The position numbers were made by a program, and so were the translations under genes. The notes under the pieces were generated by a model that saw only the letters and a program-made list of their open reading frames with translations, was not told the origin of the DNA and made no database searches. This document shows, in pieces, positions 40,216 to 61,572 of a DNA stretch of 64,000 bases. Position 1 is the stretch's first letter. Each line of letters starts with the position of its first letter. Location of the stretch: the NCBI GenBank assembly GCA_963555995.3, contig OY821641.1:2592001-2656000 (forward strand). The letters run 5' to 3'. The stretch comes from Vicinamibacteria bacterium. GTDB taxonomy: Bacteria > Acidobacteriota > Vicinamibacteria > Marinacidobacterales > Marinacidobacteraceae.

Positions 40216-40270
40216 TCTTTTGGGGAGGCTTCCGTTCGACGGACGCCCCTTTTCCCCGAAGGAGCTACCG

Positions 40271-42053: not shown

Positions 42054-42060
42054 CGTCGGT

Positions 42061-42719: not shown

Positions 42720-42736
42720 GACCTTTCCGGCAAGGA

Positions 42737-42757
42737 ATATATCTCATTGAGATATAT
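42737..42757. promoter_or_regulatory. Probable VapBC autoregulatory operator palindrome
   Basis: atatatctca-t-tgagatatat immediately upstream of vapB. Confidence 0.7.
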
Positions 42758-42891
42758 CACGGGCGGGCGTTCCCGATCGGCTGGTTCCTGCGCCGCCGCA
42801 CGATCAGCGAAGCACGGCCCGCCGCTGGTGACGGCGGATTCCGCTCGGCGATGGGGGAGGCGCGACCGACGGGCCGGATAGGATCAGCCCT

Positions 42892-44436: not shown

Positions 44437-44540
44437 TCAACAGCGTCCAGACCTCACCTTCCGCGAGTGAGCCCCCGGAAGCGGGTTGCGCCCATCCGGT
44501 GGCTTCCGGCGGCAACCGGCCTGATTGACGTGAGATTCCC

Positions 44541-44939: not shown

Positions 44940-45159
44940 GGGGTTGTTCGCGGAAGGCGTCCATGTCGAAGGTCCCCTGCCCACGCTTCAGTTTGCTCCG
45001 GAGCGGGGCCAGCCGGTCCGGGTCAATGCGCCGGGGGCAGAGGAGGAAACCTTCGGGGGTCTCTTCGAGCAGGAGCCGGTCACCCGGCTGCGCGCCCAGG
45101 GCGTCGAGCACCCGCGCTGGAAAGGTGACCTGGCGTTTTGACGTGACTTTCACCAGCAT
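44917..45159 (-). CDS. AbrB/MazE-family antitoxin
   Basis: VKVTSKRQVTFPARVLDALGAQPGD; AAGGAG RBS. Confidence 0.88.
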   Translation of the reverse strand: MLVKVTSKRQVTFPARVLDALGAQPGDRLLLEETPEGFLLCPRRIDPDRLAPLRSKLKRGQGTFDMDAFREQPHDPSLRD

Positions 45160-45315
45160 CGAGATCACTCCTTACCCAGAATCTATCAGGGTAAGGCGCC
45201 CTCGAGGAGCCACGCGGTGCGTTTCGCCGAGCGATCCCGAACAGGGGTCCAATCGTCAGGGGACATGCAGCGACGTTCAGCGACCTCTCGGCAACACCTG
45301 ATCAACCAGGGATCA

Positions 45316-45385
45316 ATTGAAAAAACTACGTTTTTTCAATGACTTATGCGTGGTTCGTTCTCTTATATCGTTTTTCGATCAAATA
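45316..45385. repeat. AT-rich site: 11-bp palindrome, caatgactta block and tcttatatcg..tttcgatcaaata block
   Basis: Both blocks recur at 47006-47058 on the other side of the Schlafen-ATPase gene. Confidence 0.75.
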
Positions 45386-45409
45386 TGAGAGGTGACCGCG
45401 GGTCAACCG

Positions 45410-46906: not shown

Positions 46907-47005
46907 CGTCCGACGCCTTCCGAGCCCGCCCGGCGTCCCGCCAAACCCGGTGCCCAGGCGATGGAACCCGAGGACTCCGGCGGGGTTGAAGAGCACATGG
47001 GCGCA

Positions 47006-47058: not shown

Positions 47059-47136
47059 GCATAGATTCTGGATTACTGGAGCACTTCCCGATCAAGGAAA
47101 CCCACGCCGCCCACGGACGTGGTGCCGTGTGAGCAG

Positions 47137-47160
47137 GGAGCGCCGGTCTTCAGACCGGCA
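47137..47160. repeat. REP-like palindrome
   Basis: ggagcgccggtcttcagaccggca. Confidence 0.8.
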
Positions 47161-47226
47161 TCGCCCGCCGTCGGCGGGCGAATGGCGCCGCCCCCCGCTC
47201 GAGACCCCGAATACGATTCGCGGTCC

Positions 47227-49239
47227 GTGTCCGACGATCCCCCCTATGCGCTGCCGAAAGATACGCGGGTCAAGGAATACAAGATCAAGCGAGTCCTCGG
47301 TAGGGGTGGGTTCGGGATCACTTATCTGGTTCACGACCTCAACCTGAAGGGCCCGGTAGCACTGAAGGAGTACTTCCCCGCTGAATACGCCCGACGTGTG
47401 CAAGACGGCTCGGTAAGGCCCATTTCGCCCGAGAGCCGGGCCAACTTCGATTGGGGCCGGAAGCGTTTCGTGGAGGAGGCGCAGACACTCCATCGGTTGC
47501 GGCATCCCAACGTGGTCCGCGTGCTCCAGTGTTTCGAAGCGCATGGCACGGCCTACATCGTGATGGAGCACATCAAGGGCAGGCCGCTGGAGAAGATTCT
47601 CGCTGAACGTGAGCGTCTTCCGGCAGCCGAATGGAAGTCACTGCTCGATCAGCTATTGAACGGGCTCGAGCATGTGCATGAGCACGGCTACCTCCACAGG
47701 GATGTCAAGCCGGGGAACATCATGATTCGTGACCACGGTGCCGAGCCAGTGTTCATTGATTTCGGCAGCGCTCGTGTAGACGCCCAGGATCCCCACACCA
47801 GGGTGCTAACGGAGGCATACGCCCCGCTGGAGCAAGGGATGGGAGAGAAGGAGGGGCCGCCGACCGATCTCTATTCACTCGCCGTCGTGTCGTACCGCGC
47901 GCTACTCGGCAAGCTGCCCCCCAAAGCGCAGAATCGCGCCGTTGAGGACACGATCGCTCGTCTGGAGCAGCGCGTGACCGGGGCAGAGCGCGCGTGGCTC
48001 GCTGCCCTCGATCAATGCCTGAACCTGTATCCCAGAGACCGCCCACAGTCGGTGGCAAACCTCCGGGAGATGCTGGCGAAACCGGCTGGCGCGTCGGACC
48101 GGATGGTCACGCCGCTCTGGGAGACGATCCGACATCCGGTACGTGCCGCACGAAGGCGGGCAGTGCGGAGATATGGCCAAGCGTTTGACCGCAAACTCGA
48201 GAAACACGGAAGCACGATATGGCTCATTGAGTACATGGGTTCGCCGTACGACGGGTGGAAAGTCATCAGGCGGGTAGAAGCTCTGGCGGGTGGAGAAATG
48301 AGCGCGGTCGTGTCCGAGCCCATGCACACCGGCGCCCGAGCTGGTAGGGACCCGCTCTTCGAAAGGCGAGTGGCCACGGAGGAGGAGGGGCTCGCGTGGC
48401 TCTATGAGTTGGAAACGAACGGCAGGATCGCGGAGGCAGCGCGGGAACGGATCGAGAGCTGGCGGAGCCCCAGGAACGAGGACAGCAATGGCAAGACCCT
48501 TTCCGGCGTTATCAGCGTGGATCTCCGCCTGATCCCGCTCCCGTCGTGGAATCGACGGAGTCCTGACGGTGGACCTTACGAATTCCCGACCGTAAACGGC
48601 GTCCGCGTGTGGGATCTCGGCATCCGAACTACAACGCTTCCACCAGTGGGCACCGATGGGGTAACCCGGTTCTCCGGGACCGTCACGGAGTCGCTCCCGT
48701 TGGTGTGGTGGGAAGTGGAGTGGTATCCGTACGGCGCACAGGACGGAAAGCCCCTGCCGTGGTATTTGCCGGGCTCTGTGGGATTCGCGACGTCCCTTGA
48801 GGTACGGAAGCACAAATCTGCCCGTCGCGCGCTACCGCCCAGCTTGGCAGAGAAGATCAGAGCGTGGGACGCCACGAATCACGAATTCGAGGCGATCTCG
48901 TTCAGGGTATCGGGCCAAGTATGGGCGCACGGGAAACACGCCCCGAGAACGTGGCAGCGCAAAAGCGCCCCCGGTGACGGTTGGTGGGTATTGGCAGCGG
49001 CGTTGCTGACGGCCGCGAGTTGCGTCACTCTGTGGGAGGGTGATCGGTGGGCGATCTTGCAGTTCCCTTCCATGCTCGGGGTCTGGATTCTGATCCTCTG
49101 GAAGAAGTTGTGGCGATTTGTTTCGTTTCATGGGAGTGGACTTGATTTCGGCAACGACCAGAGTGGGCTTGAAGGCGGCTGCGGCTGTCTTCTGGTCCTT
49201 GTGGCCTGTACGGTCGCTCCTTTCCTTCGGCACTGCTGA
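47227..49239 (+). CDS. Ser/Thr protein kinase with unknown C-terminal region and terminal TM segments
   Basis: LGRGGFG, VALKEYFP, HRDVKPGN, DFG, YAPLE, TDLYSL; GTG start at 47227 inferred by alignment with the kinase at 55945. Confidence 0.9.
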   Translation: MSDDPPYALPKDTRVKEYKIKRVLGRGGFGITYLVHDLNLKGPVALKEYFPAEYARRVQDGSVRPISPESRANFDWGRKRFVEEAQTLHRLRHPNVVRVLQCFEAHGTAYIVMEHIKGRPLEKILAERERLPAAEWKSLLDQLLNGLEHVHEHGYLHRDVKPGNIMIRDHGAEPVFIDFGSARVDAQDPHTRVLTEAYAPLEQGMGEKEGPPTDLYSLAVVSYRALLGKLPPKAQNRAVEDTIARLEQRVTGAERAWLAALDQCLNLYPRDRPQSVANLREMLAKPAGASDRMVTPLWETIRHPVRAARRRAVRRYGQAFDRKLEKHGSTIWLIEYMGSPYDGWKVIRRVEALAGGEMSAVVSEPMHTGARAGRDPLFERRVATEEEGLAWLYELETNGRIAEAARERIESWRSPRNEDSNGKTLSGVISVDLRLIPLPSWNRRSPDGGPYEFPTVNGVRVWDLGIRTTTLPPVGTDGVTRFSGTVTESLPLVWWEVEWYPYGAQDGKPLPWYLPGSVGFATSLEVRKHKSARRALPPSLAEKIRAWDATNHEFEAISFRVSGQVWAHGKHAPRTWQRKSAPGDGWWVLAAALLTAASCVTLWEGDRWAILQFPSMLGVWILILWKKLWRFVSFHGSGLDFGNDQSGLEGGCGCLLVLVACTVAPFLRHC

Positions 49240-49240
49240 C

Positions 49241-50584
49241 GTGTCCCGCTTGCACCTCACCTCATCCCTGACGGCTCTTCGTCCTCCTCCACGCACCAAT
49301 ACGGTGCCCGGTCCATGTCACCGCACGGTGCAGTGCCTCACACTCGTTGTGGCGACGCTGGCCTCCTTGGGCTCCACACGCGTTCAAGCGCAGCCACAGA
49401 CTACCGAACCCGCCGTCGTTCGCGTCCTGTTCGCCACTGAGGACGGGTTCGGGGCCGGGTCGGGGTTCTTCGTGAACGACACGCACATCGTCACGAACGA
49501 GCACCTTGTTTCGCATCCCAGTTCAGCTCCCGAATTGTTCGTTTTGTTTGCCGGGCAGGACACCCCGGAACCGGTAGAACTCGACTGGTCGAACCCCGAA
49601 CTCGATCTGGCCGTGCTTGGCTACACCGGTGGCACCTCTCGCGGGGTGCTCGCACTCACCACGGCCGATCCCGCTCGCGGCGCGGAAGTGTTCGCGCTCG
49701 GCTATCCCGGGCCGGCCGATGCCGGCTCGCTTGGCGGGGCCGCGTCGAGCACGCTCACCGAGGGCATCCTGAGCAGGGCGCCGTTCGAGGCGCAGTGGGG
49801 GCGCGACGGAACCGCCTTCGCCCGTGTGCTCCAGCACAGCGCCGCCATCAATCCGGGGAGCAGCGGAGGCCCGCTCGTGAATGCCTGTGGCGCGGTCGTC
49901 GGCGTGAACACGAGCGGCGCTTTCAGCGAGCTGCGGGACGCCGACGGCAACCTCATCGGGACGAGCGCCGCTCAGGGCATCTTCTTCGCCCTGACGGCTT
50001 CGGAACTCCGCGCGGAACTTGGGCGGCGCGGAGTGGACTTTTCCCTTGCCGAAGAGTGCGAATCCGAGGCGGGCGCAGCGCCGTTTCTTCCCTTGTTCAT
50101 CGGCCTGCTTCTGGTTGCGTTGGTCGCAGCCGGCGCCTGGTTCGCGTATCGCCGCTCGCCCCCGGGCGCGGCGGGCACCCCTGTCGGCAGTAACGGGCCG
50201 CCCGCCAAACCCGCAGAGGGCGCGGGCGGACGCCCACCGGTCCACGATCCGCCGACCCCTCCGCCAACCACGGCGCGGTTCACCGGCCGATCCGGGACAC
50301 CGGACCTGTCCGTGCCGGCCCTGAAGGACGCCCGCCACGGCATCAGCATCGGCCGCAATCCTCGACTCGTGGACCGGCCGCTCTCCGACCCGACGCTCTC
50401 CCGCCGTCACTTCCGCGTCAGCCTCGATAACGGCCGCCTGTTCGTCGAGGACCTGGGCTCGACCCACGGCACCTTCGTCAACGGCGAGCGCCTGAAGCCG
50501 TACCATGCCCGCCGCCTCGAAAACGGCGATACCGTCCGCGCCGGAAAGGGAGAATGGCGGTTCACCGCTACGGAGTCCGATTGA
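49241..50584 (+). CDS. Trypsin-like serine protease - TM - FHA protein
   Basis: GSGF..VTNEHLV (His), DLAVL (Asp), NPGSSGGPL (Ser); TM FLPLFIGLLLVALVAAGAWFAY; FHA GR..SRRH..STHGT; start uncertain. Confidence 0.88.
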   Translation: MSRLHLTSSLTALRPPPRTNTVPGPCHRTVQCLTLVVATLASLGSTRVQAQPQTTEPAVVRVLFATEDGFGAGSGFFVNDTHIVTNEHLVSHPSSAPELFVLFAGQDTPEPVELDWSNPELDLAVLGYTGGTSRGVLALTTADPARGAEVFALGYPGPADAGSLGGAASSTLTEGILSRAPFEAQWGRDGTAFARVLQHSAAINPGSSGGPLVNACGAVVGVNTSGAFSELRDADGNLIGTSAAQGIFFALTASELRAELGRRGVDFSLAEECESEAGAAPFLPLFIGLLLVALVAAGAWFAYRRSPPGAAGTPVGSNGPPAKPAEGAGGRPPVHDPPTPPPTTARFTGRSGTPDLSVPALKDARHGISIGRNPRLVDRPLSDPTLSRRHFRVSLDNGRLFVEDLGSTHGTFVNGERLKPYHARRLENGDTVRAGKGEWRFTATESD

Positions 50585-50985
50585 AACTGAAGAAACATCG
50601 CGTGCTGATCGTCGGACGGGGCCGGCAGGCGGATATCCGGTTGGACCACCGGACCGTGTCACGCCTGCATCTGGAGCTGGTGTTGGGAGCGGGCGGCGAG
50701 ATTCACGTCGCGGATCGGTCGAGCCGGAACGGCACTCGCGTCCGGTCGGACGGAAAGTGGCAGGCCCTCACCGCGCAGTCCGTGTCCCCTGCGGACCGCC
50801 TGCAGCTCGGCGATCTGGAGACCACGGTAGAGGACCTGCTGCAGCGAGTGCCGGCGGAGCCTCCCGACACCGGCCGGCGCTCTGACGACGGCCCGGGCGG
50901 GCGGCCGGATGCCGCCCCGGACCCGGATCTCCCTTCCGGCCCGGTTCGCCGGAATCCCGAAACCGGCGAAGTGATCCGCGGCTGA
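50581..50985 (+). CDS. FHA-domain protein
   Basis: VGR, VSRLH, SRNGT; TTGA overlap with the upstream stop. Confidence 0.85.
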   Translation: MKLKKHRVLIVGRGRQADIRLDHRTVSRLHLELVLGAGGEIHVADRSSRNGTRVRSDGKWQALTAQSVSPADRLQLGDLETTVEDLLQRVPAEPPDTGRRSDDGPGGRPDAAPDPDLPSGPVRRNPETGEVIRG

Positions 50986-50990
50986 ACACG

Positions 50991-51755
50991 ATGGCGGACC
51001 CCGGCGAACTTCGCGACCGCCTGACGACGGCGGCGCCCGCCATCGGGCTCGGGTCGGCGTTCGTGGCCGTGTTGAGCCTGCTGCTGACCGAAGGCTGGGC
51101 CGCCGACTTCCTGCTCGACCGCAACTCGACAGTGTTCCCCTATCCGTTCACGATCCAGAACGTCATGTGGCTGCTCTTCTTCGGCGCCTTGGGAGAACTC
51201 TGGGTCCGCTTCCAGCGGAGCAGTCTCGAACGGGTCCAACTGCGGCAGAAACTCCTGCCGGAGGACGAGGAAACGATGCTGCGCATTCAGGACCTGGGCG
51301 CGGTCCGCGCGCGTTGCCGGGGGGAAGAGCGGTTCTTCGTTCAACGGCTCGTGTCCCGCTGCGTCCTCCAGTTCCAGAGCTCGAAATCCACCGAACGCGC
51401 CAACGCGCTCCTCGACTCGTCGCTCAACCTGATGCAGCACGAAGTGGACAACAAGTACGCGATCGTCCGCTATCTGGTGTGGGTCATCCCGACGATCGGC
51501 TTCATCGGCACCGTGGTGGGAATCGCCGCCGCGCTCAACAGCGCAGGCGCCGCCGAGGACTACCAGGACCCCGCGCTCCTCGGAGAACTGACCCGCGATC
51601 TGGGCGTCGCTTTCTACACTACGATGCTGGCGTTGATCCAGTCGGCATTGCTGGTTCTCGCCCAGAATCAGGTGCAGGCGCGCGAGGAGGGAGCGCTGAA
51701 CGAGGCGGGCCAGTACTGTCTCGACAACCTGATCAACCGACTCTACGAGAAGTGA
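50991..51755 (+). CDS. MotA/TolQ/ExbB proton-channel family protein
   Basis: IPTIGFIGTVVGI...LGVAFYTTMLAL; four hydrophobic segments. Confidence 0.88.
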   Translation: MADPGELRDRLTTAAPAIGLGSAFVAVLSLLLTEGWAADFLLDRNSTVFPYPFTIQNVMWLLFFGALGELWVRFQRSSLERVQLRQKLLPEDEETMLRIQDLGAVRARCRGEERFFVQRLVSRCVLQFQSSKSTERANALLDSSLNLMQHEVDNKYAIVRYLVWVIPTIGFIGTVVGIAAALNSAGAAEDYQDPALLGELTRDLGVAFYTTMLALIQSALLVLAQNQVQAREEGALNEAGQYCLDNLINRLYEK

Positions 51756-51765
51756 GGCAGCGCCC

Positions 51766-52422
51766 ATGCCCGTGTATCGAACCCCCGATGGCCGGATCGT
51801 GGAGGAGCGGACCAAGCAGCGGCTGCTCGGGGGACGCCGGAAAACCACCGCTCCCGACAGCGAGCGGACCACGGTTGCGAACGCCGGGGACGAAGCCCCG
51901 CCGTCCCCGAATCCGCCGCGCCGCGGCTACGGTGATCCCACCGTGGTGCACGCGCCTCGTACCCGGGGTACCGGCGCCACGTCTCCCCCAGTAGCTCCCG
52001 ACAGGGAAACGACGCGGCTTCATGGAAGCATCGGTGGAAGCGCGACGGGCGTGGAGGGAGCGCCGCCCGTCGTGGACCCCGTGGCGGGGTGGCTCGTCGT
52101 GGTGGACGGCCCCGGAACCGGGACGGACCTGCGAATCGGCATCGGCCAGAACGTAGTTGGCCGCGATCCCGAGAACCGGATCGGACTCGCTTTCGGGGAC
52201 CGGAAGATCTCCCGCCGCGATCACCTCCGGGTCAACTACGACCATGAGCGCCGCGTGTTCTCGGTGGTGCCCGGGACCAGCGCGAACCTCGCGTATCTGA
52301 ACGGGACGGCGATCGAACAGCGCTCGGTCCTCGCGGCGGGCGACACGATCCGCATCGGACGCACCACGCTGCGCTTCGTCGCCTTCTGCGGAGACGACTT
52401 CAACTGGCCGGATGAGGACTGA
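51766..52422 (+). CDS. FHA-domain protein with Thr-rich disordered N-terminus
   Basis: PVAGWLVVVDGPG, VGR, ISRRDH, YLNG, IRIGRTTLRFVAFCG..F.W. Confidence 0.87.
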   Translation: MPVYRTPDGRIVEERTKQRLLGGRRKTTAPDSERTTVANAGDEAPPSPNPPRRGYGDPTVVHAPRTRGTGATSPPVAPDRETTRLHGSIGGSATGVEGAPPVVDPVAGWLVVVDGPGTGTDLRIGIGQNVVGRDPENRIGLAFGDRKISRRDHLRVNYDHERRVFSVVPGTSANLAYLNGTAIEQRSVLAAGDTIRIGRTTLRFVAFCGDDFNWPDED

Positions 52423-53542
52423 TCGCGGCGGCCCGGCACGGCTCGCTCGCGGAGCCAGCGCCGCTACGGCCCTCACCGTCCTGGCGGTCGGCTGCGGAAC
52501 CTCGGGGGTGGGTGCGGACCCGCCGTGGTTCCTCGTCGCGCTTGGGACGGCGGCGCTCCTGGCCTTGGCGGTGTTCGGGCTGGAATTCGCGTTCCGAGGT
52601 TTGCGGATGCGGCGCGCCGCGGTCGGCTCGCCGGGCTCGGGAATCCGCCACGCCCACGGCCAGTCCCTGGGCAAGCGGGAGCGACAGGAAGACGACCTCG
52701 GGCACATTGACGGCGACACCCTCGACCCGGAAGGCAACCATTCCGTCGTCCTGGTGGCGGACGGAATGGGCGGCCACGCCGCCGGCGAGGTGGCGAGCCG
52801 CGCCGCCGTCCGCGGCTTCGTGCAGGCGTACGGAACGCGGGGACCCGCCCCGAACCGCCTCCGGTCGGCGCTCGACCGGGCGAACGCGGCCATCGCCGAA
52901 GAGAGGGATCGGGACAGGGCGCTCTTCGGCATGGGAACCACCCTGGTCGCGGCGGCGGTGACCGAACAGGGACTCCACTGGATCAGCGTCGGCGATTCCC
53001 CGCTCTATCTCTTCCGCGCCGGACGGCTCGAACGGCTGAACGAGGACCATTCGATGCGGCCCGTGATCGCCCGCCTGCTGGAGGAAGATCCGGAAGCGGC
53101 GTCCAACTACAGCCCGAACCAGCTTCTTTCCGCGCTCATGGGCGGCCACATCGAGAAGACGGACGCCCCGGCGACGCCCCGACGACTCGAAGCCGGGGAC
53201 ATCGTTCTGGTAGCGACCGACGGCCTTGAGACCCTCGATGAGGAGGAGACGGAGGCCCTGATCGCGGAGCATCGCGGCGGAGGTCCGGACGCGGTCCGCG
53301 ACGCCCTGCTGCGAGCCGTCGAGGCGAAGGATCATCCCCGTCAGGACAACACGAGCCTGTTCGTGATCGAGGTCGAGCGGAGTTCGGTGAACGGCGGACC
53401 GTCAAGGGACCCGGGCGAGGCGGCGGCAGCGGAACCAGCCACGGAACCTCCGGGAGACGAGGCCGACGGGCGCTCGGCAGAGCCGCGCCCCGACGGACCG
53501 GCAGGCAGCGACGAAGGAGGCGGCGATGCGCGGGACGGGTAG
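52412..53542 (+). CDS. Membrane-anchored PP2C-family Ser/Thr phosphatase
   Basis: RQEDD, VADGMGGH, MGTTL, VGDS, DHS, ATDGL, QDNTS; N-terminal LAVGC and TM. Confidence 0.92.
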   Translation: MRTDRGGPARLARGASAATALTVLAVGCGTSGVGADPPWFLVALGTAALLALAVFGLEFAFRGLRMRRAAVGSPGSGIRHAHGQSLGKRERQEDDLGHIDGDTLDPEGNHSVVLVADGMGGHAAGEVASRAAVRGFVQAYGTRGPAPNRLRSALDRANAAIAEERDRDRALFGMGTTLVAAAVTEQGLHWISVGDSPLYLFRAGRLERLNEDHSMRPVIARLLEEDPEAASNYSPNQLLSALMGGHIEKTDAPATPRRLEAGDIVLVATDGLETLDEEETEALIAEHRGGGPDAVRDALLRAVEAKDHPRQDNTSLFVIEVERSSVNGGPSRDPGEAAAAEPATEPPGDEADGRSAEPRPDGPAGSDEGGGDARDG

Positions 53543-54929
53543 CGCTGCCCTCGTGGCGGCCGTCGTTCTCTTGGGTTTTGCCGCACTGGTGCGAGCGCAG
53601 CCACCGGACCTCAGCGACGTCCGGGAACAGGTGGTCATCGTGCGGGCCTTCGATGCCATGGGGCGCGCGCTGGGCGACATCTCCGGTTTCGCGGTCGGCG
53701 GCGGGTTCGTGGCCACGAACGCCGCGCTGCTCGCCGGAGCGGAGGACGTGGTGATCGTTCTGCCGGAGACCCGCGACGAGTTTCCGGCCGCGGTGGCCGT
53801 TCTGGAACGGCGTTCGGGGGTGGCGGTCCTCCAGGCGGACGGCTTCGGAGCCGCGGGATTGCGCTTCGCCGCCCCGGAAGCGGAGCCGGCGCAGGGCCAG
53901 GGGCTCTACCTGCCCCGCTTCGCCTCCGACGGAACGCTGGACGCGGAAGCGGTTCGCGGTTCGATTTCCGAACTGCGGATCATCGAGCCGACGGCGGTGG
54001 GGGAGCGGGACGTGTTGCTCTACCGCCACAACGCTCCGGCGACGGCGCGCCAGTACGGGATGCCGCTGCTCAACGACTGCGGTGAGGCGGTCGGGCAGTT
54101 GCGCACCGACCCCGACATGTCGCGCACCACCCTGAACGCCCGGCCCGATCCGGGACCCGCCCCGTTCGCGGCAGCGGCGGTGGCGGTTCGCGACGTGCTC
54201 GCTGCGGCCGGGGCCGAACCGGGGCTCGCGGACGAGCCGTGCCTCGATCCGGTCGCCGCAGCGGAGGCGGCGCGGCGGGAGGCGGACGCGGCAGCGGCGC
54301 GGGCCGAGGCCGCCGCCGCGGAAGCGGCAACAGCCGGCGAGGAGCGTGACGCCGCCCGCGAGGAAGCCGAGGCTGCCCGGACGGCGGCGGAAGAGAGTCA
54401 GGCGGAGCGGGAGTCTGCGGAGGCCGAGGCGGAGCGCCTGGCGAGACAGCGCCGCTGGCTTGGGGCTGCGGTGATTCTCGGGATGGCGGTGGTCGTCGCC
54501 GTCATCTTTCTGCTCGCCCAGCGGCTCCGCCGCCGCCGTGAGGCGCTCGCCGCCTCGAAGAAGGAACTGGAAGGGGCCCTCCGCCCGGCCGCTTTCTCCT
54601 GTCTCCTCGACGGCGCCCACGAGAGCGGGCGGGGCTACGCGCTGAAGATCAGCGCCGAGCAGCTTGGTTCGCCCTCGGGGGTGGTCGTGGGGAGGAACCC
54701 CGCCCAGGCGGGAGCCTTGCTCGACCACCCGGAAGCCTCGCGCGAACACCTCCGGCTCACGGCGCGGGGTGACGAACTTGCCGTGACGGATCTCCACTCC
54801 ACGAACGGGACCTTCGTGAACGGCGAGCGGCTGGAAGCGGGAGCGGAGAGCCCAGTGGCGGACGGCGCCGAGATCGGCGTCGGATCGGCCATCACGCTGC
54901 GCCTGACGGTCCAGCGAACCGAAACATGA
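53526..54929 (+). CDS. Catalytically dead trypsin-like - coiled coil - TM - FHA protein
   Basis: Signal peptide; SGF..VATNAALL, SGVAVL, RQYGMPLLNDCG (triad lost); Ala/Glu coiled coil; TM; FHA GR..SREH..STNGT. Confidence 0.82.
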   Translation: MRGTGSAALVAAVVLLGFAALVRAQPPDLSDVREQVVIVRAFDAMGRALGDISGFAVGGGFVATNAALLAGAEDVVIVLPETRDEFPAAVAVLERRSGVAVLQADGFGAAGLRFAAPEAEPAQGQGLYLPRFASDGTLDAEAVRGSISELRIIEPTAVGERDVLLYRHNAPATARQYGMPLLNDCGEAVGQLRTDPDMSRTTLNARPDPGPAPFAAAAVAVRDVLAAAGAEPGLADEPCLDPVAAAEAARREADAAAARAEAAAAEAATAGEERDAAREEAEAARTAAEESQAERESAEAEAERLARQRRWLGAAVILGMAVVVAVIFLLAQRLRRRREALAASKKELEGALRPAAFSCLLDGAHESGRGYALKISAEQLGSPSGVVVGRNPAQAGALLDHPEASREHLRLTARGDELAVTDLHSTNGTFVNGERLEAGAESPVADGAEIGVGSAITLRLTVQRTET

Positions 54930-55888
54930 GGCCGATCCGCCGCGAAGCGAGCATCTTCAGCGTCTCGGCGATTGATCTGTTCGCGTCGGCGCTCGGCGCC
55001 TTCGTGATCGTCTCCTTCGTCCTGTTCCCTTACTTCCCGAACACCGGTGAGGTGCCCCCGGCCCCGGTGGCTCCGCCGACGCCCCCGCCGCCGGTACCCG
55101 CGCCGCCGACCGGCATTTCGGCGGCGGAGGCAGCCGCCCTCGAAGCGCGGATCGCGGAGTTGGAAGGGGAACTCGGCGCCGCCCGGAGCCGGGAGTCGGA
55201 CCTGGGGGAGGAACTCGGCGACGCAAGGAGCCGGGAGTCCGAACTGTCGCGGGCTCTCGACGAGGCGACCTCCACGATCAGGAAGCTGCCGCCGCTCGAC
55301 CTGGTGATTGCGCTCGACACCACGAATAGCATGACGAACGAAGTCGTTGGGCTTCGCGAAGAGATCGCCGGTCTCGCGGAACTCCTCGTGGAGTTGACCG
55401 ATGACGCGGCGGTGGGCCTGATCGAGTTCAAGGACCGGTGCGATCCCGTGAACGCAGTGCGGGTTACCGGGCTGCGGCCGGTGAACCGTCAGACGGCACA
55501 GGAACTCGCCGTCTTCGCCCGATCCATGATCCCTGGCACGCCGTGCAATTTGACCGCGGACGAGGACTACGCCGAAGCCCTTCGCGCGGCGGTGCTGTCA
55601 GAGTGGCGACCCGTCTCGGAACGGCGATCCATCGTGCTGATCTCGGACAATCCCGCTCACGACGACATGCGCACTCAAGCAATCTCCGACGCGCGGGCTT
55701 TTGCAATGCGGCCGGGGGCTCGCCACACCGTCTCGTCGGTCTTTGTGGACACCAGCCCGAACCCGCGACACCCCGACACGGAGGACTTCATGCGTCAGGT
55801 GACGCAGGCCGGACGAGGCCGATTCGTCGAGGCCGACCGGAATGCGTCGTTATCGGTGACCATCCTCCTGGCGGTCTTCCGGAGCTGA
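54926..55888 (+). CDS. ExbD/MotB-like Asp-bearing TM anchor, coiled coil and vWA domain
   Basis: FSVSAIDLFASALGAFVIVSFVLF; Pro-rich linker; MIDAS-like DLVIALDTTNSM; IVLISDNPAH; ATGA overlap. Confidence 0.8.
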   Translation: MRPIRREASIFSVSAIDLFASALGAFVIVSFVLFPYFPNTGEVPPAPVAPPTPPPPVPAPPTGISAAEAAALEARIAELEGELGAARSRESDLGEELGDARSRESELSRALDEATSTIRKLPPLDLVIALDTTNSMTNEVVGLREEIAGLAELLVELTDDAAVGLIEFKDRCDPVNAVRVTGLRPVNRQTAQELAVFARSMIPGTPCNLTADEDYAEALRAAVLSEWRPVSERRSIVLISDNPAHDDMRTQAISDARAFAMRPGARHTVSSVFVDTSPNPRHPDTEDFMRQVTQAGRGRFVEADRNASLSVTILLAVFRS

Positions 55889-55944
55889 AGAGACCACAAA
55901 CCACCAGTCGCATCCCTCCCCGCAGGTAAGACCCGAGCGCGACC

Positions 55945-58900
55945 ATGGCCCGTGAGTACCCCGACGCGCTCCCAGCGGGCTATCGGCTCGAGGAATTCAA
56001 GATCGTCCGCGTGCTCGGCCAAGGAGGCTTCGCGATCACCTATCTGGCGAAGGACAACTACCGGGATCAGGAGGTGGCCCTCAAGGAGTATTTCCCGGCC
56101 GGCAACGCCATGCGAACCGGCGGGACGCGTGTGGAGCCGACGCCGGGCGCCCGCGAGGTCTTCGACTGGGGATACCGACGCTTTCTCGATGAGGCGCGAG
56201 CGCAATCGAAGTTCCGCCATCCCAACATCCCGGTGCTCCATCGGTATTTCCGCGCCAACGGCACGGCCTATGTCGCCATGGATTACATCAAGGGACCTTC
56301 CCTTTCGGATCTTCTCGCTGATCGCGGCAGTCTCTCCGTGAACCAGTGGCGTCCATGGCTGGATCGTCTGCTCGACGCACTGGAACACGTACATGGCCAC
56401 GACTACCTGCACCGAGATATCACGCCTCGCAACATTTTGATCCGAGAGTCTGACAACCAGCCGGTTCTTATTGATTTCGGGGCCGCCCGGGTCGCTGGCG
56501 GCGACAAGACCCGAACGGTGGTCTTGACCAAGGCCTACGCCCCGCCAGAGCAAGGTTCAGCCCGCGCGAAGCAGGGACCCTACACGGACATCTATGCACT
56601 CGGAGCAGTGTCGTACTGCGTGCTCACCGGTGAGCTGCCAGCCACCCCGTCTGACCGGGCTGCTGGGGAGGAGCATGAGCCCCTCGCACAGCAACTGGAA
56701 GAGGCTTTCGACTGGGTCGTTGCCGTGGACCGGGCGCTCTGTCTGCGGCCGAAGGACCGTCCACAGAAAACCGCCGCGTGGCGGAAGGAACTGCACGAAG
56801 CAGCCGCGAAGATGTGGTTGTCGGGCGAGCCCGATCAGATAGCGGCCCGGGATGCCGAAGGACTGACGCCCCTCCACCGCGCCGCCGCGGCAGAGCCGGT
56901 TCCCGGCGTCGTGGCGACCTTGCTCGAACTCGGTGCCGACATCCACGCTGTGGCGGGAAGGGACGACGTCGTTCTCTTTGAAAGGCACGGCGACACGCCG
57001 CTACACCGGGCTGCGGCGGCCAATCCGAATCCGGACATAACGGCGGTTCTGCTAGACCGCGGTGCCGACGTTCGGGCGCAGGACCTGATAGGTGAACAGC
57101 CTCTCCACCACGCAGCGAGGCACAACTCCAATGCGAAAGAGATCGCTCTGCTGCTCGACCGCGGTGCCGACATCCACGCCAAGGACGACTCTGGTAGCGC
57201 GCCTCTACACGCGGCCGCCGAGGCCAATTCCCATCCAGGCGTGCTGACGCTCCTGCTTGACCGCGGCGCCGATATCCACGTCAGAAACCGGGATGGAGAA
57301 ACGCCGTTGCACCACGCTGGGGAGAACCCACACGCCGACGTCGTGACCCTTCTCCTCGACTTTGGCGCCGACCTGCACGCGCGGGATGCCAACGGGAATA
57401 CGCCGCTCCATGTCACGGCGTGGCATAACAGAAATCCGGAAACATTCAGGCTCCTGTTGAATCGCGGTGGCGACCTGCAGGCACGGAACAGTTCCGGCGC
57501 TACGCCCCTCCACTGCGCGGTGCGAGGGAGTCAGAGCAGCGAAGTGTTGGCCCTTCTTCTCGACCAGGGCGCCGACCCTCACGCAGTTGACGGCGAGGGG
57601 CGGACAGCCCTGCACTGGGCCGCATCGGAAGACGCCATGGAGACGGTGCAACTGCTCATTGAGCGCGGCGCGGACATCGAGGCGAAAGACTCCGATGGAC
57701 GTCGCCCGCTCCATCTCGCGGCGTCTGAGGACGCCTCCAGCGCGGCCGAATTGCTCCTCAGTCGCGACGCGTGCGTCCGAGCACGCGACCAAGGCGGGTG
57801 TACTCCACTTCACCGGGCCGCGGGCCGGGATTGCCTGCGGGTCTCACAACTGCTGCTCGACAACGGCGCAGACGTGGGAGGGCGGACTCCGACCGATACC
57901 CGAAACTGGACCTCGAAGCTGGATCTTGGTCGAGCGGCAGGTGAGGAGTTGGAGACGCTATGGTGGTTGGCCTTCGACAGCTACGATCCGACCACCAAGG
58001 TTCCGATCTCGATACATGACCCAGACTGGGCGCTGTGGTTCCTGGCATGTGACAACCACTGCGACATCACCGGCTGGGCAGAGACAACGCCTCTACACAC
58101 GGCGGCGCGAACCAATGGCCAGCGTGTGACCGCGCTGCTCCTTGACCGCGGCGCCGATCCAGCGGCCAGAGATTCCACCGGAAGGACACCGCTTCACGTG
58201 GCGGCCCTGAACAACGCCGTGGATGCCGCGAGACTTCTGATTCAGTCGTCTCCGCGCAGCTTGGGCGTCAAGGACACCGCCGGCAGGACACCGCTGCACT
58301 TTGCCGCCTGGGGCGATGCCAGAGAGACGGCGGAACTACTCCTCCGCCATCGTGCCGAGATCAAGTGCAGCGAGGAGACACGCGCCAAGACTTGGTTCTG
58401 GAAGGAGAGCCGCAGGCCCGCCGACATTGTGTGCCTCTTGCTCAGTGGTCCATTCGGCGAACCGGGAAGCGGCTGCCGCGAAGACGCGAAAGCGGTAAAG
58501 GGCTGGCACGACCTTCGGATGCTCACGGAACGACTCCTGCACAAGGGCCATACACCGTTGCATTGGGCTGCGTTCGGTGACTCTCGGGACGTAGCCGAAC
58601 TGCTTCTCGATAAAGGTGTGAATGTCCATGGAGGTGCGGATGACGGAATGACGCCCTTGGACCTGGCAGCGCTCGGCGACGCCTTGATCACCGCACGGCT
58701 GCTCATAGATTGCGGAGCGGATGTCTGCGGTCGGAAAGGTCATGCCACGCCACTGCATTGGGCCGCGCTTGGAAACAGCCGCGAAACTCTGGCACTACTG
58801 TTGGAACGCGGTGCTGATGTCGCAGTGGATATCGGTACAGCGAAGTCCGAAGGAATGACCGCTCTTTTCTGGGCGGTACTCGGAAAGGCTTCCCACGCTG

Positions 58901-61572
58901 CGGAGTTACTTCTGGAACACGGAGCAGAGCTCGGACAGGCCGTGGGTTATGGCCTCGTGTCGCGCCCCTGGATGGACTGGAAGGACGCGCGCGAGGGTGT
59001 TGAGGCACTCAGCGAGGAGTCGAATTCCACGCTGCTTCACTGGGCAGCACTGCGCGATGCCACGGACGTCGTGGACATGTTGCTTGACCGCGGCCTCGAT
59101 CCGGAGGCGGAAGACGCCGAGGGCCGGACGCCGCTGGACTACGCCGCCCAAGGTAACGCCGTCGGTGCGTTGGAGCGTCTTCTGGATCGCGGGGCCGACA
59201 CGAGTGGCAGTCGACGGACGAGCGGCACACCACTTCACAGCGCGTCCCGCGCCGATGCAGTGGACGCCGCGCATCTGTTACTGGAACGTGGATCGGATGT
59301 GCAGGCCGGCGAATCCGACATCGGCACGCCGCTCCACATGGTCCGTTCGACGGAGCTCGCGTCGCTTCTCCTCGATAGTGGGGCCGACGTTGACGCGCGA
59401 GACTCCAACGGAAGCACTCCACTTCACAGCGCCAACGGCAACCGAGCCGTCGCCGAGCAACTGCTTGAACGGGGTGCCGACATCGAAGCGACTGAAGGCT
59501 CTGGAAATACGCCGCTGCACCATGCCGCCGGGGCAGAGAAAGGAAGTGATGTTGCGGAAATCCTGCTCGATCGTGGCGCATCCATCAATGTACCGAACCA
59601 CAACGGAAATACCCCTCTGCACCTAGCCGCATCCGAGACCGGACACAACGATGCCGGAAAGGCGACTGTACTTTGCCTACTCAGGCGGGGTGCTGATGTC
59701 GACCTCGTCAACGCGGATGGCAAGACGCCGCTGATGGTTGCCATCGAAGGGTCCGAAGACTGGGAGGACGTGGTTCGGGATGTGGCAGCATGCTTCCTTG
59801 ACCACGGAGCGGACATCAATGCCCGTGACACACGTGGAAGTACGCCGCTCCACCTGGCGGCTCGATGTCGGTATTCGTCGGTGAGTGAGGAACTGACCTC
59901 GCTGCTCCTTGAGCGTGGTGCCGCCGTTGACGCTGCAGACAACGACGGTCGTACGGCGCTCCATGTTGCTGCAGGCACAGGGCATTCGCGGGTGTCGGCC
60001 GAGCTAATCCGTCGCGGAGCCGACGTCCACGCCCGGACGAAAGAGGGGGAGACGCCGCTGTACAGTGCCGCCGATGGAGCGGCGTGGGGACGATCCGCTG
60101 AGGCTGTGGAACTCCTTCTGGATGAGGAGGCGATGGTTCACGCGAGAACGGAGGACTGCTGGACCCCTCTTCACGCGGCGGCAAGTAGCGGAGCGAAGGA
60201 AGCAGTTGAACTGCTCCTGGATCGCGGAGCGGACTGCCAGAGCCAGACGCGATCCGGCGAGACGCCACTGCATCTGGCGGCGTATCTGCATCTTGTCCAG
60301 GAGTCGGACAATTCGCCCCCGACCGTCAGCAGGCAGCAACTCGAAGTTGTGCAACTGCTCTCGCGTGGGGGTTGCGAGTGGAATGTGAAGGATGAGAGTG
60401 GAGATACGCCACTGAGGTGCTATGTGAGGCAGTGGTGGAGATACAGGAATCGCATGCCCGACGGCCTTGACGGCATCGAATTCGTCCGGCGTTGCGGTGT
60501 GGATGATTCCGCCTTAGTCAATGCCGCCGTCGAGGACCTCGTTCGAGTAGCACCCGAGATGCGTAGCCGATCACTATCTGGCGATCCCGAGAACGCGTCC
60601 GAATCTCTGGACACCCGCACTTACGAGGATTCCAAGGCCACTGTTGATTTTCTTCTCGATCGCGGCGCCGACGTGAATGTACTCAACGCAGCCGGGCGCG
60701 CGCCGATCCACATCGCGGCGGCGGCGGGCGTACCGTCCGTCGTCGAATTCCTTCTGGACCGAGATGCGGAGGTCAACCGCCCCGATGCAAGCGGAAACAC
60801 GCCGCTTCACTCTTGGGCTGAGCAAGTCCTCCTGGATCGCGGTGCTGACGTGATGGCGCGCAATGCGGACGGCGAAACCCCGCTGCACTCGGCAGCGGGT
60901 CGTGATGACTATGTAGCGGCGGAGTTCCTGCTTCGCCATGGTGCAGATGTTGACGCGAGGGACAAGAACGCCGCGACGCCCCTGCATCGGGCCGCTTTCG
61001 AGAATTCGACGAGTGTCGCGGAACAGCTACTGGATCAGGGTGCCGACATCGCGGCCGAAGACCAGAGCGCTGAGACTCCGTTGCACGCCGCGATCCGCGG
61101 TGGCGCCTGGGAAACAGTCGAATTCCTACTGGAACGCGGGGCGGACCCGCAGTCCATCGAGGAGTACGAGTCGGAGGGTCTGGTGGAGACTGGGGCGTCG
61201 ATCGAGGACCGCATCTGTGCCGGGAAGATGCTCCGGATCAAGCGAATCGAGGAGGGCCTGTTTGATGCGCTATGGGAGGGGCTGGACGAACTCTCCCGCC
61301 GCAAGGGATGGGATGAAGGTATGCGCGTCTTTCGGCGGTTACATGAGTGTGTGGAAGACTGGGGCAGTGCGCGATACATGTTCGACTACCCAGAGGAGAA
61401 TCGCGGATTCGGCGCAAGTCTTGAAGGGCTGCTCCGGGAAGAGGGTGAGGAAGGACCGCTGATGCGCCAGCTTCGAGACAAAGCCGACTTCGAATGGCTC
61501 CGCGATCTGGTGTGGGAGCTCAGAGACGGCACGTTGCTGGACCCAGAGCGGTGGGTTGAACGGATGGACTGA
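55945..61572 (+). CDS. Ser/Thr protein kinase with about 35 ankyrin repeats
   Basis: LGQGGFA, VALKEYFP, HRDITPRN, DFG, YAPPE; repeated GxTPLHxAA...LLDRGAD. Confidence 0.93.
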   Translation: MAREYPDALPAGYRLEEFKIVRVLGQGGFAITYLAKDNYRDQEVALKEYFPAGNAMRTGGTRVEPTPGAREVFDWGYRRFLDEARAQSKFRHPNIPVLHRYFRANGTAYVAMDYIKGPSLSDLLADRGSLSVNQWRPWLDRLLDALEHVHGHDYLHRDITPRNILIRESDNQPVLIDFGAARVAGGDKTRTVVLTKAYAPPEQGSARAKQGPYTDIYALGAVSYCVLTGELPATPSDRAAGEEHEPLAQQLEEAFDWVVAVDRALCLRPKDRPQKTAAWRKELHEAAAKMWLSGEPDQIAARDAEGLTPLHRAAAAEPVPGVVATLLELGADIHAVAGRDDVVLFERHGDTPLHRAAAANPNPDITAVLLDRGADVRAQDLIGEQPLHHAARHNSNAKEIALLLDRGADIHAKDDSGSAPLHAAAEANSHPGVLTLLLDRGADIHVRNRDGETPLHHAGENPHADVVTLLLDFGADLHARDANGNTPLHVTAWHNRNPETFRLLLNRGGDLQARNSSGATPLHCAVRGSQSSEVLALLLDQGADPHAVDGEGRTALHWAASEDAMETVQLLIERGADIEAKDSDGRRPLHLAASEDASSAAELLLSRDACVRARDQGGCTPLHRAAGRDCLRVSQLLLDNGADVGGRTPTDTRNWTSKLDLGRAAGEELETLWWLAFDSYDPTTKVPISIHDPDWALWFLACDNHCDITGWAETTPLHTAARTNGQRVTALLLDRGADPAARDSTGRTPLHVAALNNAVDAARLLIQSSPRSLGVKDTAGRTPLHFAAWGDARETAELLLRHRAEIKCSEETRAKTWFWKESRRPADIVCLLLSGPFGEPGSGCREDAKAVKGWHDLRMLTERLLHKGHTPLHWAAFGDSRDVAELLLDKGVNVHGGADDGMTPLDLAALGDALITARLLIDCGADVCGRKGHATPLHWAALGNSRETLALLLERGADVAVDIGTAKSEGMTALFWAVLGKASHAAELLLEHGAELGQAVGYGLVSRPWMDWKDAREGVEALSEESNSTLLHWAALRDATDVVDMLLDRGLDPEAEDAEGRTPLDYAAQGNAVGALERLLDRGADTSGSRRTSGTPLHSASRADAVDAAHLLLERGSDVQAGESDIGTPLHMVRSTELASLLLDSGADVDARDSNGSTPLHSANGNRAVAEQLLERGADIEATEGSGNTPLHHAAGAEKGSDVAEILLDRGASINVPNHNGNTPLHLAASETGHNDAGKATVLCLLRRGADVDLVNADGKTPLMVAIEGSEDWEDVVRDVAACFLDHGADINARDTRGSTPLHLAARCRYSSVSEELTSLLLERGAAVDAADNDGRTALHVAAGTGHSRVSAELIRRGADVHARTKEGETPLYSAADGAAWGRSAEAVELLLDEEAMVHARTEDCWTPLHAAASSGAKEAVELLLDRGADCQSQTRSGETPLHLAAYLHLVQESDNSPPTVSRQQLEVVQLLSRGGCEWNVKDESGDTPLRCYVRQWWRYRNRMPDGLDGIEFVRRCGVDDSALVNAAVEDLVRVAPEMRSRSLSGDPENASESLDTRTYEDSKATVDFLLDRGADVNVLNAAGRAPIHIAAAAGVPSVVEFLLDRDAEVNRPDASGNTPLHSWAEQVLLDRGADVMARNADGETPLHSAAGRDDYVAAEFLLRHGADVDARDKNAATPLHRAAFENSTSVAEQLLDQGADIAAEDQSAETPLHAAIRGGAWETVEFLLERGADPQSIEEYESEGLVETGASIEDRICAGKMLRIKRIEEGLFDALWEGLDELSRRKGWDEGMRVFRRLHECVEDWGSARYMFDYPEENRGFGASLEGLLREEGEEGPLMRQLRDKADFEWLRDLVWELRDGTLLDPERWVERMD

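What the first reader, a model, noticed from the sequence alone, without database searches (positions are those of the whole stretch)
47227..61572. Candidate undescribed envelope-sensing phosphosignalling system (nine genes)
Seen: a tightly coupled run (overlaps or gaps of 56 bp or less): kinase, trypsin-TM-FHA, FHA, MotA/ExbB, FHA, TM-PP2C, dead trypsin-CC-TM-FHA, Asp-TM-vWA, kinase-ankyrin. It holds writers, an eraser, four pThr readers, a periplasmic protease and an ion-driven motor pair. Established: kinase/PP2C/FHA modules regulate T6SS, vWA/PP2C/kinase form TerY-P defence, and MotAB-like motors power Zorya; none matches this gene set. Inference: a membrane complex coupling periplasmic sensing or proteolysis and proton motive force to phosphorylation, for defence or host interaction.
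Basis: partly seen in the sequence, partly recalled or inferred. Interest (0 to 1): 0.85.

Follow-up and report, generated by a model that had tools for sequence, protein, structure and literature searches.

The report
Kinase-switched membrane motor with integrin-like head
This nine-gene cluster recurs in several bacterial phyla and encodes a predicted ion-driven membrane motor with an integrin-like binding head, likely switched on by interchangeable sensor kinases; I found no paper describing the whole system.

Summary
The nine genes are real and annotated correctly. The cluster is conserved: 45 of 61 well-flanked GTDB loci hold MotA-like + kinase + PP2C + Asp-helix partner + FHA, across at least five phyla. 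It lies in no T6SS or Tol locus; only 4 of 50 carrier genomes have TssC. The MotA/Asp-helix-vWA pair was already predicted as a motor class (PMC12204202), but I found no paper on the kinase wiring.

Shown here: the rotor head is integrin-beta-like and is swapped for a YfaP/DUF2135 fold in 15 of 78 homologues. One FHA protein carries a Thr-motif linker (148 motifs against 22 in shuffles). The kinases carry about 14 kinds of tail, DGR-hypermutated in 3 of 80 loci. Rotor and protease stalk lengths co-vary.

Anti-phage defence is not supported by gene neighbourhood (11/138 versus 10/125 defence hits). No function or binding was tested. The scan has noted this system at least eight times on other DNA.

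The parts
47227..49239 (+). g1: Hanks Ser/Thr kinase, unassigned middle domain, 2-3 predicted C-terminal membrane helices; low GC3 (0.73)
   Evidence: Pfam Pkinase 1.3e-36; start supported by alignment with 4 orthologues; helices; GC3; no Atlas hit for the tail
49241..50584 (+). g2: predicted signal peptide, trypsin-like protease with intact H-D-S triad, short stalk, TM helix, cytoplasmic FHA (start uncertain: 49241/49304/49328)
50554..50985 (+). g3: soluble FHA adaptor with a conserved C-terminal hairpin-like motif
50991..51755 (+). g4: MotA/TolQ/ExbB-family subunit, predicted pentamer; Thr174 and Thr211 invariant in 77 homologues
   Evidence: Pfam PF01618 2.1e-12; alignment A2; only weak PDB matches to PomA/TolQ/MotA, E 0.07-0.6
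51766..52422 (+). g5: N-terminal beta-hairpin, disordered linker with repeated acidic-x-Thr-x-hydrophobic motifs (likely kinase substrate), C-terminal FHA
   Evidence: AlphaFold model; motif enrichment
52412..53542 (+). g6: PP2C phosphatase with N-terminal TM helix and intact metal-binding Asp motifs
53526..54929 (+). g7: signal peptide, catalytically dead trypsin domain, coiled-coil stalk, TM helix, FHA
54926..55888 (+). g8: transpore helix with Asp17, Pro-rich linker, 51-residue helix, integrin-beta-like vWA head (MIDAS D131/T133/S135, E213, D241); predicted MotB/ExbD-equivalent rotor
55945..61572 (+). g9: Hanks kinase fused to about 24-29 ankyrin repeats, no TM helix; low GC3 (0.69-0.73)
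47136..47182 (.). short palindromic intergenic repeat, hundreds of copies in the genome; marks the upstream edge, not specific to the system
   Evidence: 387 blastn pieces in the own genome
61685..61868 (.). cluster of dispersed intergenic repeats at the downstream edge, not specific to the system
   Evidence: 802 blastn pieces in the own genome

Best explanation
The cluster likely builds a phosphorylation-gated, ion-driven 5:2 membrane motor that would grip and pull a periplasmic target when one of its interchangeable kinases detects a ligand. Step 1 (inferred from variability): the kinases' swappable tails are the sensors; here a cytoplasmic ankyrin array and a membrane-anchored domain, elsewhere periplasmic lectin-fold, Sel1, PEGA or peptidoglycan-binding domains. 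Step 2 (motif shown, phosphorylation inferred): the active kinase phosphorylates the repeated Thr motifs in g5's disordered linker, and g6 reverses this. Step 3 (inferred): the multiply phosphorylated linker cross-links the FHA domains of g3, g5 and the membrane proteins g2 and g7, gathering them on the g4 pentamer, as Fha1 nucleates T6SS assembly and as GltG's helix plus FHA is predicted to dock on AglR. Step 4 (residues shown, rotation inferred): ion flow through the g4/g8 channel (g8 Asp17, g4 Thr174/Thr211) moves the g8 dimer, whose metal-dependent integrin-beta-like head binds an acidic ligand. Step 5 (weakest): the head works at the height of the trypsin domains, where the dead one would hold and the live one, when present, would cut the captured protein. 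The likely purpose is contact or envelope-threat handling in crowded communities.
For: Conserved gene set and order over at least five phyla: adjacency FHA-MotA 59, MotA-FHA 62, FHA-PP2C 63, trypsin-TPH 37 among 80 loci. TPH Asp motif in 78 of 78; MotA Thr invariant in 77. Thr motif 148 against 21.7+/-4.9 in 500 shuffles, in 61 of 62 g5 linkers, not enriched in four other regions. This kinase clade occurs in exactly the 4 of 27 family genomes that have the motor. About 14 tail types on the kinases; DGR template/variable repeats at the kinase lectin-fold end in 3 of 80 loci, e.g. 16/17 and 19/20 mismatches at template A. Against the same-genus carrier: core domains 75-98% identical, kinase domains 62% and 74%, ankyrins 57%, g1 tail no match. 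Best PDB sequence match of the head is integrin beta-3, E 4.5e-7, with the metal-site residues aligned. Rotor stalk length tracks dead-trypsin stalk (rho 0.46, n=36; 11 of 13 informative independent pairs, p 0.02) and live-trypsin stalk (rho 0.47, n=29; 7 of 8, p 0.07); three cytoplasmic linkers do not correlate (rho 0.12, -0.16, -0.20). Precedents: PMC12204202 (section 8 read), PMC13713981 (abstract), PMC11761067 (passages).
Against: No interaction, phosphorylation, ion flux or phenotype was measured or modelled. The Thr pattern was chosen after seeing the sequences (best of 7 patterns) and the sequences are related. One control linker (g3) also gave 5:1 same-sign pairs, and the two stalk tests share pairs. 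The protease step cannot be universal: only 34 of 78 trypsin domains are live, 54 of 80 loci have any trypsin-FHA, and an Alphaproteobacterial variant lacks PP2C, trypsins and the long Thr linker. By fold the head is a generic vWA (top hit BatB). The two kinases here lack a periplasmic sensor domain. 16 of 61 well-flanked loci miss at least one core part within 10 kb.
Confidence: 0.45

Rival explanations
1. Zorya-like defence: the motor is the sensor of envelope breach (e.g. phage injection), and its activity triggers the kinases, whose phosphorylation of cell proteins is the output.
For: g4 has a weak ZorA hit (E 3.9e-7 over 93 aa) and the kinases hit PD-T4-6/MAD6 kinase models. Distribution is patchy: 1 of 15 same-genus genomes, and 5 of 5 near-complete ones lack the ~24 kb stretch. 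Single loci sit beside a Gabija-like pair or BrxD/SNF2 genes. DGR-diversified lectin folds are proposed invasion sensors (PMC10907252, passages).
Against: No enrichment of PADLOC hits in flanks: 11 of 138 genes (two reverse transcriptases dropped from 13) against 10 of 125 in blind control stretches of the same 20 genomes; loci 8/20 against 6/20. No ZorA tail, OmpA-type ZorB or nuclease effector. The kinase hits cover only the kinase domain. Hypervariable tails on the kinases point to the kinases as sensors.
Confidence: 0.17
2. A signalling hub for another machine: the phospho-relay controls a secretion system, pilus or transcriptional programme encoded elsewhere, with the motor as a PMF or stress gauge.
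For: Kinase/PP2C/FHA sets control T6SS assembly (PMC13713981 abstract). The locus has no transcription factor or obvious toxin, so output could act in trans. The genome has three further FHA domains elsewhere.
Against: TssC is found in only 4 of 50 carrier genomes; the own genome (93% complete) shows no TssC, VgrG-type or FliG match over the cut-off. No recurring machine gene among the neighbours.
Confidence: 0.15
3. Adhesion, surface motility or host interaction: a small Agl-Glt-like machine that couples PMF to an integrin-like adhesin, with ankyrin kinases dealing with a eukaryotic host.
For: Agl-Glt also combines a TolQ-like motor, an FHA-TM protein and a vWA adhesin (PMC11761067 passages; PMC9946355 search listing). 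The head is integrin-beta-like. Many carriers are marine MAGs with ankyrin/Sel1 tails.
Against: The vWA head is tethered to the inner membrane on a 10-130 residue stalk, and no outer-membrane or lipoprotein partner recurs. g9 has no signal or TM. Free-living cultured genera and a Rhizobium plasmid carry the system. Most close relatives lack it.
Confidence: 0.12
4. A Ton/Tol-like energiser of transport or envelope upkeep that happens to be phospho-regulated.
For: Same motor superfamily; PMC12204202 suggests TPH-vWA motors apply force at the outer membrane.
Against: The genome has two separate ExbB/TolQ loci with standard ExbD genes. No TonB, TolB, Pal or receptor recurs in the loci. Presence in about 1-2% of sampled genomes and frequent absence in close kin do not fit housekeeping.
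Confidence: 0.08

Closest known systems
Predicted TolQ-like / transpore-helix vWA (TPH-vWA) 5:2 motors (PMC12204202, Mol Biol Evol 2025; section 8 read in full, supplement text searched)
   Same: TolQ-like gene with a vWA protein whose N-terminal helix has the conserved Asp; Thr ring residues; no tolR/exbD; function unknown
   Different: There mostly heterologous vWA pairs; the words 'kinase' and 'phosphat' do not occur in the main text. Here a single TPH gene in most loci, a head swappable for DUF2135, and a full kinase/PP2C/FHA/trypsin set. Figure 4c itself could not be seen. The paired form resembles the cousin loci (inference).
T6SS threonine-phosphorylation pathway PpkA-Fha1-PppA (PMC13713981, abstract only; PMC5995506, search listing)
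   Same: Membrane kinase, PP2C and an FHA protein as likely dedicated substrate that switch assembly of an envelope machine
   Different: No T6SS core genes in the loci or in 46 of 50 carrier genomes; the machine is a 5:2 motor; several kinases with variable tails
Myxococcus Agl-Glt focal adhesion motor (PMC11761067, passages)
   Same: TolQ-like pentamer, a TM+FHA protein predicted to dock on it, a vWA domain in the force path
   Different: AglQ/S are ordinary TolR-like; CglB is an outer-membrane adhesin; at least 17 proteins; no kinase/PP2C in the machine; g2/g7 have the opposite topology (FHA C-terminal)
Zorya (ZorA5B2) anti-phage motor (recalled; PADLOC models tested)
   Same: 5:2 motor superfamily, patchy accessory distribution
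   Different: No long ZorA tail, no OmpA-type peptidoglycan anchor, no ZorC/D/E effectors, no defence-island enrichment
TerY-P vWA/PP2C/kinase triad (recalled; a related triad is mentioned in PMC7159879, passages)
   Same: vWA + PP2C + kinase in one operon
   Different: Here the vWA is a membrane rotor beside MotA; g6 and g8 hit no PADLOC model

Membership tests
TPH-vWA / TolQ-like 5:2 motor (PMC12204202) | tolQ-like gene tightly linked to a TM-tethered vWA gene, no tolR/exbD | tested here: met
   g4 and g8; TPH gene in 69 of 80 loci; own ExbD genes lie at two other loci
TPH-vWA / TolQ-like 5:2 motor (PMC12204202) | conserved Asp in the transpore helix and Thr residues in the pentamer helices | tested here: met
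   Asp motif 78 of 78; T174, T211 invariant in 77
TPH-vWA / TolQ-like 5:2 motor (PMC12204202) | predominantly heterologous pairs of TPH-vWA genes | tested here: not met
   one TPH gene in the window and most loci; pairs in the Alphaproteobacterial variant, L056/L061, L102 and the cousin loci. The paper says 'predominantly', so this does not exclude membership.
TPH-vWA / TolQ-like 5:2 motor (PMC12204202) | 5:2 complex with helices inside the pentamer; ion-driven rotation | not testable with these tools
T6SS threonine-phosphorylation pathway | kinase + PP2C + FHA substrate with Thr sites | tested here: met
   (domains and motifs; phosphorylation itself untested)
T6SS threonine-phosphorylation pathway | linked to T6SS core genes | tested here: not met
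   TssC 0 in own genome, 4 of 50 carriers; no VgrG-type match; none recurring in loci
Zorya | ZorA with long cytoplasmic tail, ZorB with OmpA-type domain, ZorC/D/E effectors | tested here: not met
   g4 is 254 aa with one weak ZorA stretch; g8 head is vWA; no effector hits among the nine genes
Zorya | protection against phage | not testable with these tools
   needs a phage challenge; neighbourhood proxy negative
TerY-P | soluble TerY-type vWA with PP2C and kinase matching the system's models | tested here: not met
   g6 and g8: 0 PADLOC families at E 1e-3; g8 is membrane-anchored
Ton / Tol-Pal | ExbD/TolR plus TonB/TolA, TolB, Pal or receptors in the locus | tested here: not met
Agl-Glt gliding machinery | AglRQS with outer-membrane and periplasmic Glt proteins | tested here: not met
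   only FHA-level similarity to GltG, far below cut-off; no recurring OM partner in loci; Glt genes elsewhere in the genome were not searched

The most novel reading that the evidence does not exclude
A new class of bacterial receptor-to-force machine: a library of hypervariable receptor kinases, in some genomes diversified by retroelements like an adaptive repertoire, switches on a proton-driven rotary motor whose integrin-beta-like head captures and pulls a foreign or damaged protein in the periplasm and presents it to a tethered protease/pseudoprotease pair. It would be a periplasmic, PMF-powered counterpart of ATP-driven unfoldase-protease machines, used for non-self recognition.
Probability: 0.25. 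Interest if true: 0.92.

Novelty: new variant of a known kind. Interest (0 to 1): 0.72.

Why it matters
The characterised 5:2 ion-driven motors that I recall power flagella, Ton import, Tol-Pal, gliding and Zorya; I know none that is switched by its own Ser/Thr kinase pathway. This cluster would add a regulated, signal-driven member and give the first functional handle on the TPH-vWA motors predicted in 2025. The repertoire of kinase tails, with DGR hypermutation in some genomes, implies selection to recognise changing ligands, so the system bears on how bacteria sense contact or threat at the envelope. It is testable now: cultured carriers include Aliiglaciecola lipolytica E3, Alishewanella tabrizica KCTC 23723 and a Rhizobium leguminosarum megaplasmid, and single residues (g8 Asp17, MIDAS, g5 threonines, g2 catalytic Ser) give clean predictions.

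Tried and rejected
Chance juxtaposition: rejected by conserved order. Assembly artefact: rejected. T6SS or Tol accessory locus: rejected. Defence-island association: tested against blind control stretches and not found; the test is small (20 genomes, ORFs chosen by a heuristic, PADLOC at 1e-30, toxin-antitoxin genes not counted). Phage carriage: 57 pattern matches in viral contigs, none a relative. Plasmids: 3 of 72,556 records, one a full system. Profile search of the 50%-identity protein library: machine busy at every try. g1's C-terminal domain: no Pfam or Atlas hit. Expression: no RNA holder listed. Thr motifs in kinase linkers, TM-FHA linkers, PP2C tails and the g3 tail: not enriched. A conserved motor-binding motif in the g2/g7 TM helices: none seen by eye. 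MotA tree (FastTree) interleaves phyla, but no clade test was run and MAG binning errors are possible, so I claim no donor. The DGR scan was run on L036-L115, not on the window, whose kinases have no lectin-fold domain. Literature: 10 full-text searches; none returned a description of this gene set. The library lacks most subscription papers, bioRxiv supplements are closed, and figure 4c of PMC12204202 could not be seen.
Full report
OBSERVATION. The nine ORFs are present on the + strand at the stated coordinates and carry the stated domains. Catalytic residues are intact in both kinases (G-x-G-G-F, ALKE, HRD, DFG), in the PP2C and in g2 (H129/D163/S249). g7 has lost all three triad residues. 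All four FHA domains keep the G-R and S-x-x-H phospho-Thr residues, as do 221 of 238 FHA domains in related loci. Public contigs match the locus without differences in the listed long pieces (4 runs, one study). The genome is 3.80 Mb, 70% GC, 93% complete. The closest named locus is titled Candidatus Marinacidobacterium sp., and other near hits are Vicinamibacterales and Thermoanaerobaculia.

CONSERVATION. The MotA-like g4 has 3226 homologues at E<=0.001 among 6050 candidates. With HMMs seeded on the window's domains and rebuilt from these loci, FHA occurs in 78 of 80, kinase 74, Asp-helix (TPH) protein 69, PP2C 68, trypsin-FHA 54. Of 61 loci with at least 9 kb on both sides, 45 have MotA, kinase, PP2C, TPH and FHA, and 38 also have trypsin-FHA (L080 duplicates L077 and was dropped from later counts). 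The commonest neighbours are FHA-PP2C 63, MotA-FHA 62, FHA-MotA 59 and trypsin-TPH 37. All 4 carriers in the host's family keep the window's order, one with an extra ankyrin-only gene before its kinase-ankyrin.

DISTRIBUTION. The system is rare and patchy: 1 of 15 other genomes of the genus and 4 of 27 of the family, 2 of 300 in the phylum sample, and 7 of 400 in the class of the Aliiglaciecola genome, counting that genome itself (one genome not scored). Five near-complete same-genus genomes have the flanking LVIVD-repeat paralogues and proline racemase within 10-16 kb, while the window's genome has about 24 kb between two paralogues. The MotA tree interleaves phyla (no clade test). A complete variant lies on a conjugative Rhizobium leguminosarum megaplasmid. 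None was found in viral contigs.

NOT T6SS, NOT TOL. The own genome has no TssC or VgrG-type match, and TssC occurs in 4 of 50 carrier genomes (50 of the 70 loci I first listed). Clustering all unassigned neighbours found no recurring T6SS, TonB, TolB or Pal gene. The genome's ordinary ExbD genes sit with two other ExbB/TolQ genes.

THE MOTOR. g4 keeps Thr174 and Thr211 invariant in 77 homologues, plus a strongly conserved cytoplasmic region. It matches solved PomA, TolQ and MotA only weakly (E 0.07-0.6). The TPH Asp motif is present in 78 of 78 partners. PMC12204202 (section 8 read; supplement text searched) predicts this kind of TolQ-like/TPH-vWA motor, function unknown, and does not mention kinases or phosphatases. 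The AlphaFold model of g8 (pLDDT 84.6) shows helix 15-36, a linker, helix 66-116 and a vWA domain. Its best PDB sequence match is integrin beta-3 (E 4.5e-7). The DxSxS motif, the following Asp, the N-x-D-x-P-E segment and the last MIDAS Asp align. By fold it is a generic vWA (top hit BatB). Among 78 TPH proteins, 60 have a MIDAS vWA head, 15 a different head and 3 are truncated or unassigned. One of the 15 was checked and matches YfaP/DUF2135 (TM 0.93 between predicted models). So the head is a swappable binding module on a constant rotor.

THE SWITCH. g5 is modelled as a beta-hairpin, a disordered linker (18-101) and an FHA domain. Its linker is rich in acidic-x(1-2)-Thr-x-hydrophobic motifs: 148 against 21.7+/-4.9 in 500 shuffles, in 61 of 62 homologues (best of 7 patterns, chosen after inspection). 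The motif is not enriched in four other regions. That such motifs are kinase and FHA sites in GarA/OdhI-type proteins is recalled, not tested. The kinase clade occurs in exactly the 4 of 27 family genomes that have the motor, always in the locus; one weaker hit (41%) lies in another family. This resembles PpkA, whose only target is Fha1 (PMC13713981, abstract). A TM+FHA segment docking on a TolQ-like pentamer is predicted for GltG-AglR (PMC11761067, passages).

THE SENSORS. Of 108 full kinase domains in 79 loci, 61 have a TM helix and an outer domain of 80 aa or more, and 31 have a long tail without a detected TM. In the subset scanned the tails include FGE/lectin fold, PEGA, Sel1, ankyrin, peptidoglycan-binding, beta-helix, PDZ, PAN, DUF1036, TerB-DnaJ, DnaJ-C, MORN, DksA zinc finger and 17-kDa antigen. 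Following a lead from earlier scan notes, I found DGR template and variable repeats at the lectin-fold C-terminus in 3 of 80 loci. L049 has a reverse transcriptase and three kinase targets, with 16/17 and 19/20 mismatches at template A and an indel in the third. L070 has a reverse transcriptase and two targets (19/20, 16/19), one a kinase. L065 gives 17/21, with no reverse transcriptase found within the locus. In the window the kinase genes have GC3 0.69-0.73 against 0.80-0.86 for the core and a genome median near 0.87. They are also the least conserved parts against the same-genus carrier. Inputs vary and the machine is constant, which puts the kinases upstream (inference).

THE PROTEASES. 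Of 78 trypsin domains, 34 have H-D-S and 44 do not; 40 of the 44 are closer to g7 than to g2. Many loci keep only the dead form, and some replace it with coiled coil or vWA before TM-FHA. A thermolysin-TM-FHA gene recurs in about ten loci. The g8 stalk length correlates with the dead-trypsin stalk (rho 0.46, n=36; 11 of 13 informative independent pairs) and with the live one (rho 0.47, n=29; 7 of 8). It does not correlate with three cytoplasmic linkers, although one of those gave 5:1 pairs. This is modest evidence that head and trypsin domains work at the same height.

DEFENCE? Anecdotes exist: a Gabija-like pair beside the Rhizobium locus, BrxD/SNF2 genes beside G020's, and PIN, AAA-PD-(D/E)XK and AlbA genes upstream here. 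A paired test found no enrichment: 13 of 138 flank genes had PADLOC hits at 1e-30, 11 after dropping two reverse transcriptases, against 10 of 125 in blind stretches of the same 20 genomes; loci 8/20 against 6/20, Fisher p 1.0 and 0.74. The locus has no nuclease or toxin effector. Zorya and TerY-P membership fail on their defining parts.

VERDICT. A real, undescribed, multi-phylum system built on a motor class predicted in 2025. My committed mechanism is sensor kinase, then phosphorylation of the g5 linker, FHA-driven assembly on the g4 pentamer, and ion-driven capture and pull by the g8 head next to a protease/pseudoprotease pair (0.45). Rough odds by step: g4/g8 motor complex 0.85, g5 as substrate 0.75, gating of the motor 0.55, proteolytic output 0.3. 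Ten full-text searches found no description of the gene set, within a library that lacks most subscription papers. The scan's own unchecked notes list at least eight similar clusters on other genomes; they are not independent support.

Noticed in passing
L025-L035 (order- and class-level relatives), e.g. L027:3665-14127: A cousin cluster: hypothetical protein, kinase-TM-TPR, TM-PEGA-FGE protein, MotA-like gene (about 30% to g4), a protein ending in FHA, and a pair of TPH-vWA genes. It accounts for the loci examined among the 26 of 33 non-family relatives with a weak g4 match. Likely closer to the paired form in PMC12204202.
   Followed up: partly
L132:8782-11361 and L133:8947-11547: On two cyanobacterial plasmids, a distant MotA-like gene with a long C-terminal tail plus two small TPH-like genes (one lacking the Asp) sits among type III-B CRISPR and viperin genes, or nucleotidyltransferase/SLATT and methylase genes: a possible Zorya-like three-gene cassette.
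   Followed up: partly
L131:5684-23483: Full variant on a Rhizobium leguminosarum conjugative megaplasmid with two PP2Cs, kinase-PDZ and kinase-PDZ-PAN receptors and a 1610-aa protein with no Pfam hit, about 3 kb from an OLD-TOPRIM/UvrD (Gabija-like) pair.
   Followed up: partly
L075, L077, L086, L087, L095, L101, L107, L110, L114: Recurring accessory pair: PP2C fused to an unknown domain, and thermolysin (M4)-TM-FHA; fused into one ORF in L107.
   Followed up: partly
window 50900-50985 and 51766-51815: The g3 C-terminal and g5 N-terminal motifs look like the same kind of beta-hairpin and each occurs in loci lacking the other, so both may bind a third part such as g4. Untested.
   Followed up: partly
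window 1-16700: Separate defence-like island: ISL3 transposase, HTH-M78 peptidase (RmrA-like), RelA/SpoT-domain protein (PDC-S33 hit), AlbA-RecG protein and a DruE-like helicase.
   Followed up: no
window 38040-40364 and L123:1169-9501: Tandem array of LVIVD/Big_2 paralogues conserved in the genus; the system and neighbouring toxin-antitoxin-like genes interrupt it.
   Followed up: partly
window 41151-47000: SNase-Excalibur nuclease, two PIN genes, AAA-PD-(D/E)XK and AlbA-RecG genes directly upstream of the cluster.
   Followed up: no
window 51131-51740 and 55000: Other contigs in the same public runs align at 85% or more to g4 and the g8 helix with many differences, suggesting that co-occurring community members also carry the motor.
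   Followed up: no
L074/L076, L059/L074, L077/L080: Some genomes hold two copies of the cluster (L059 and L074 on one chromosome; L077 and L080 near-identical on two contigs).
   Followed up: no
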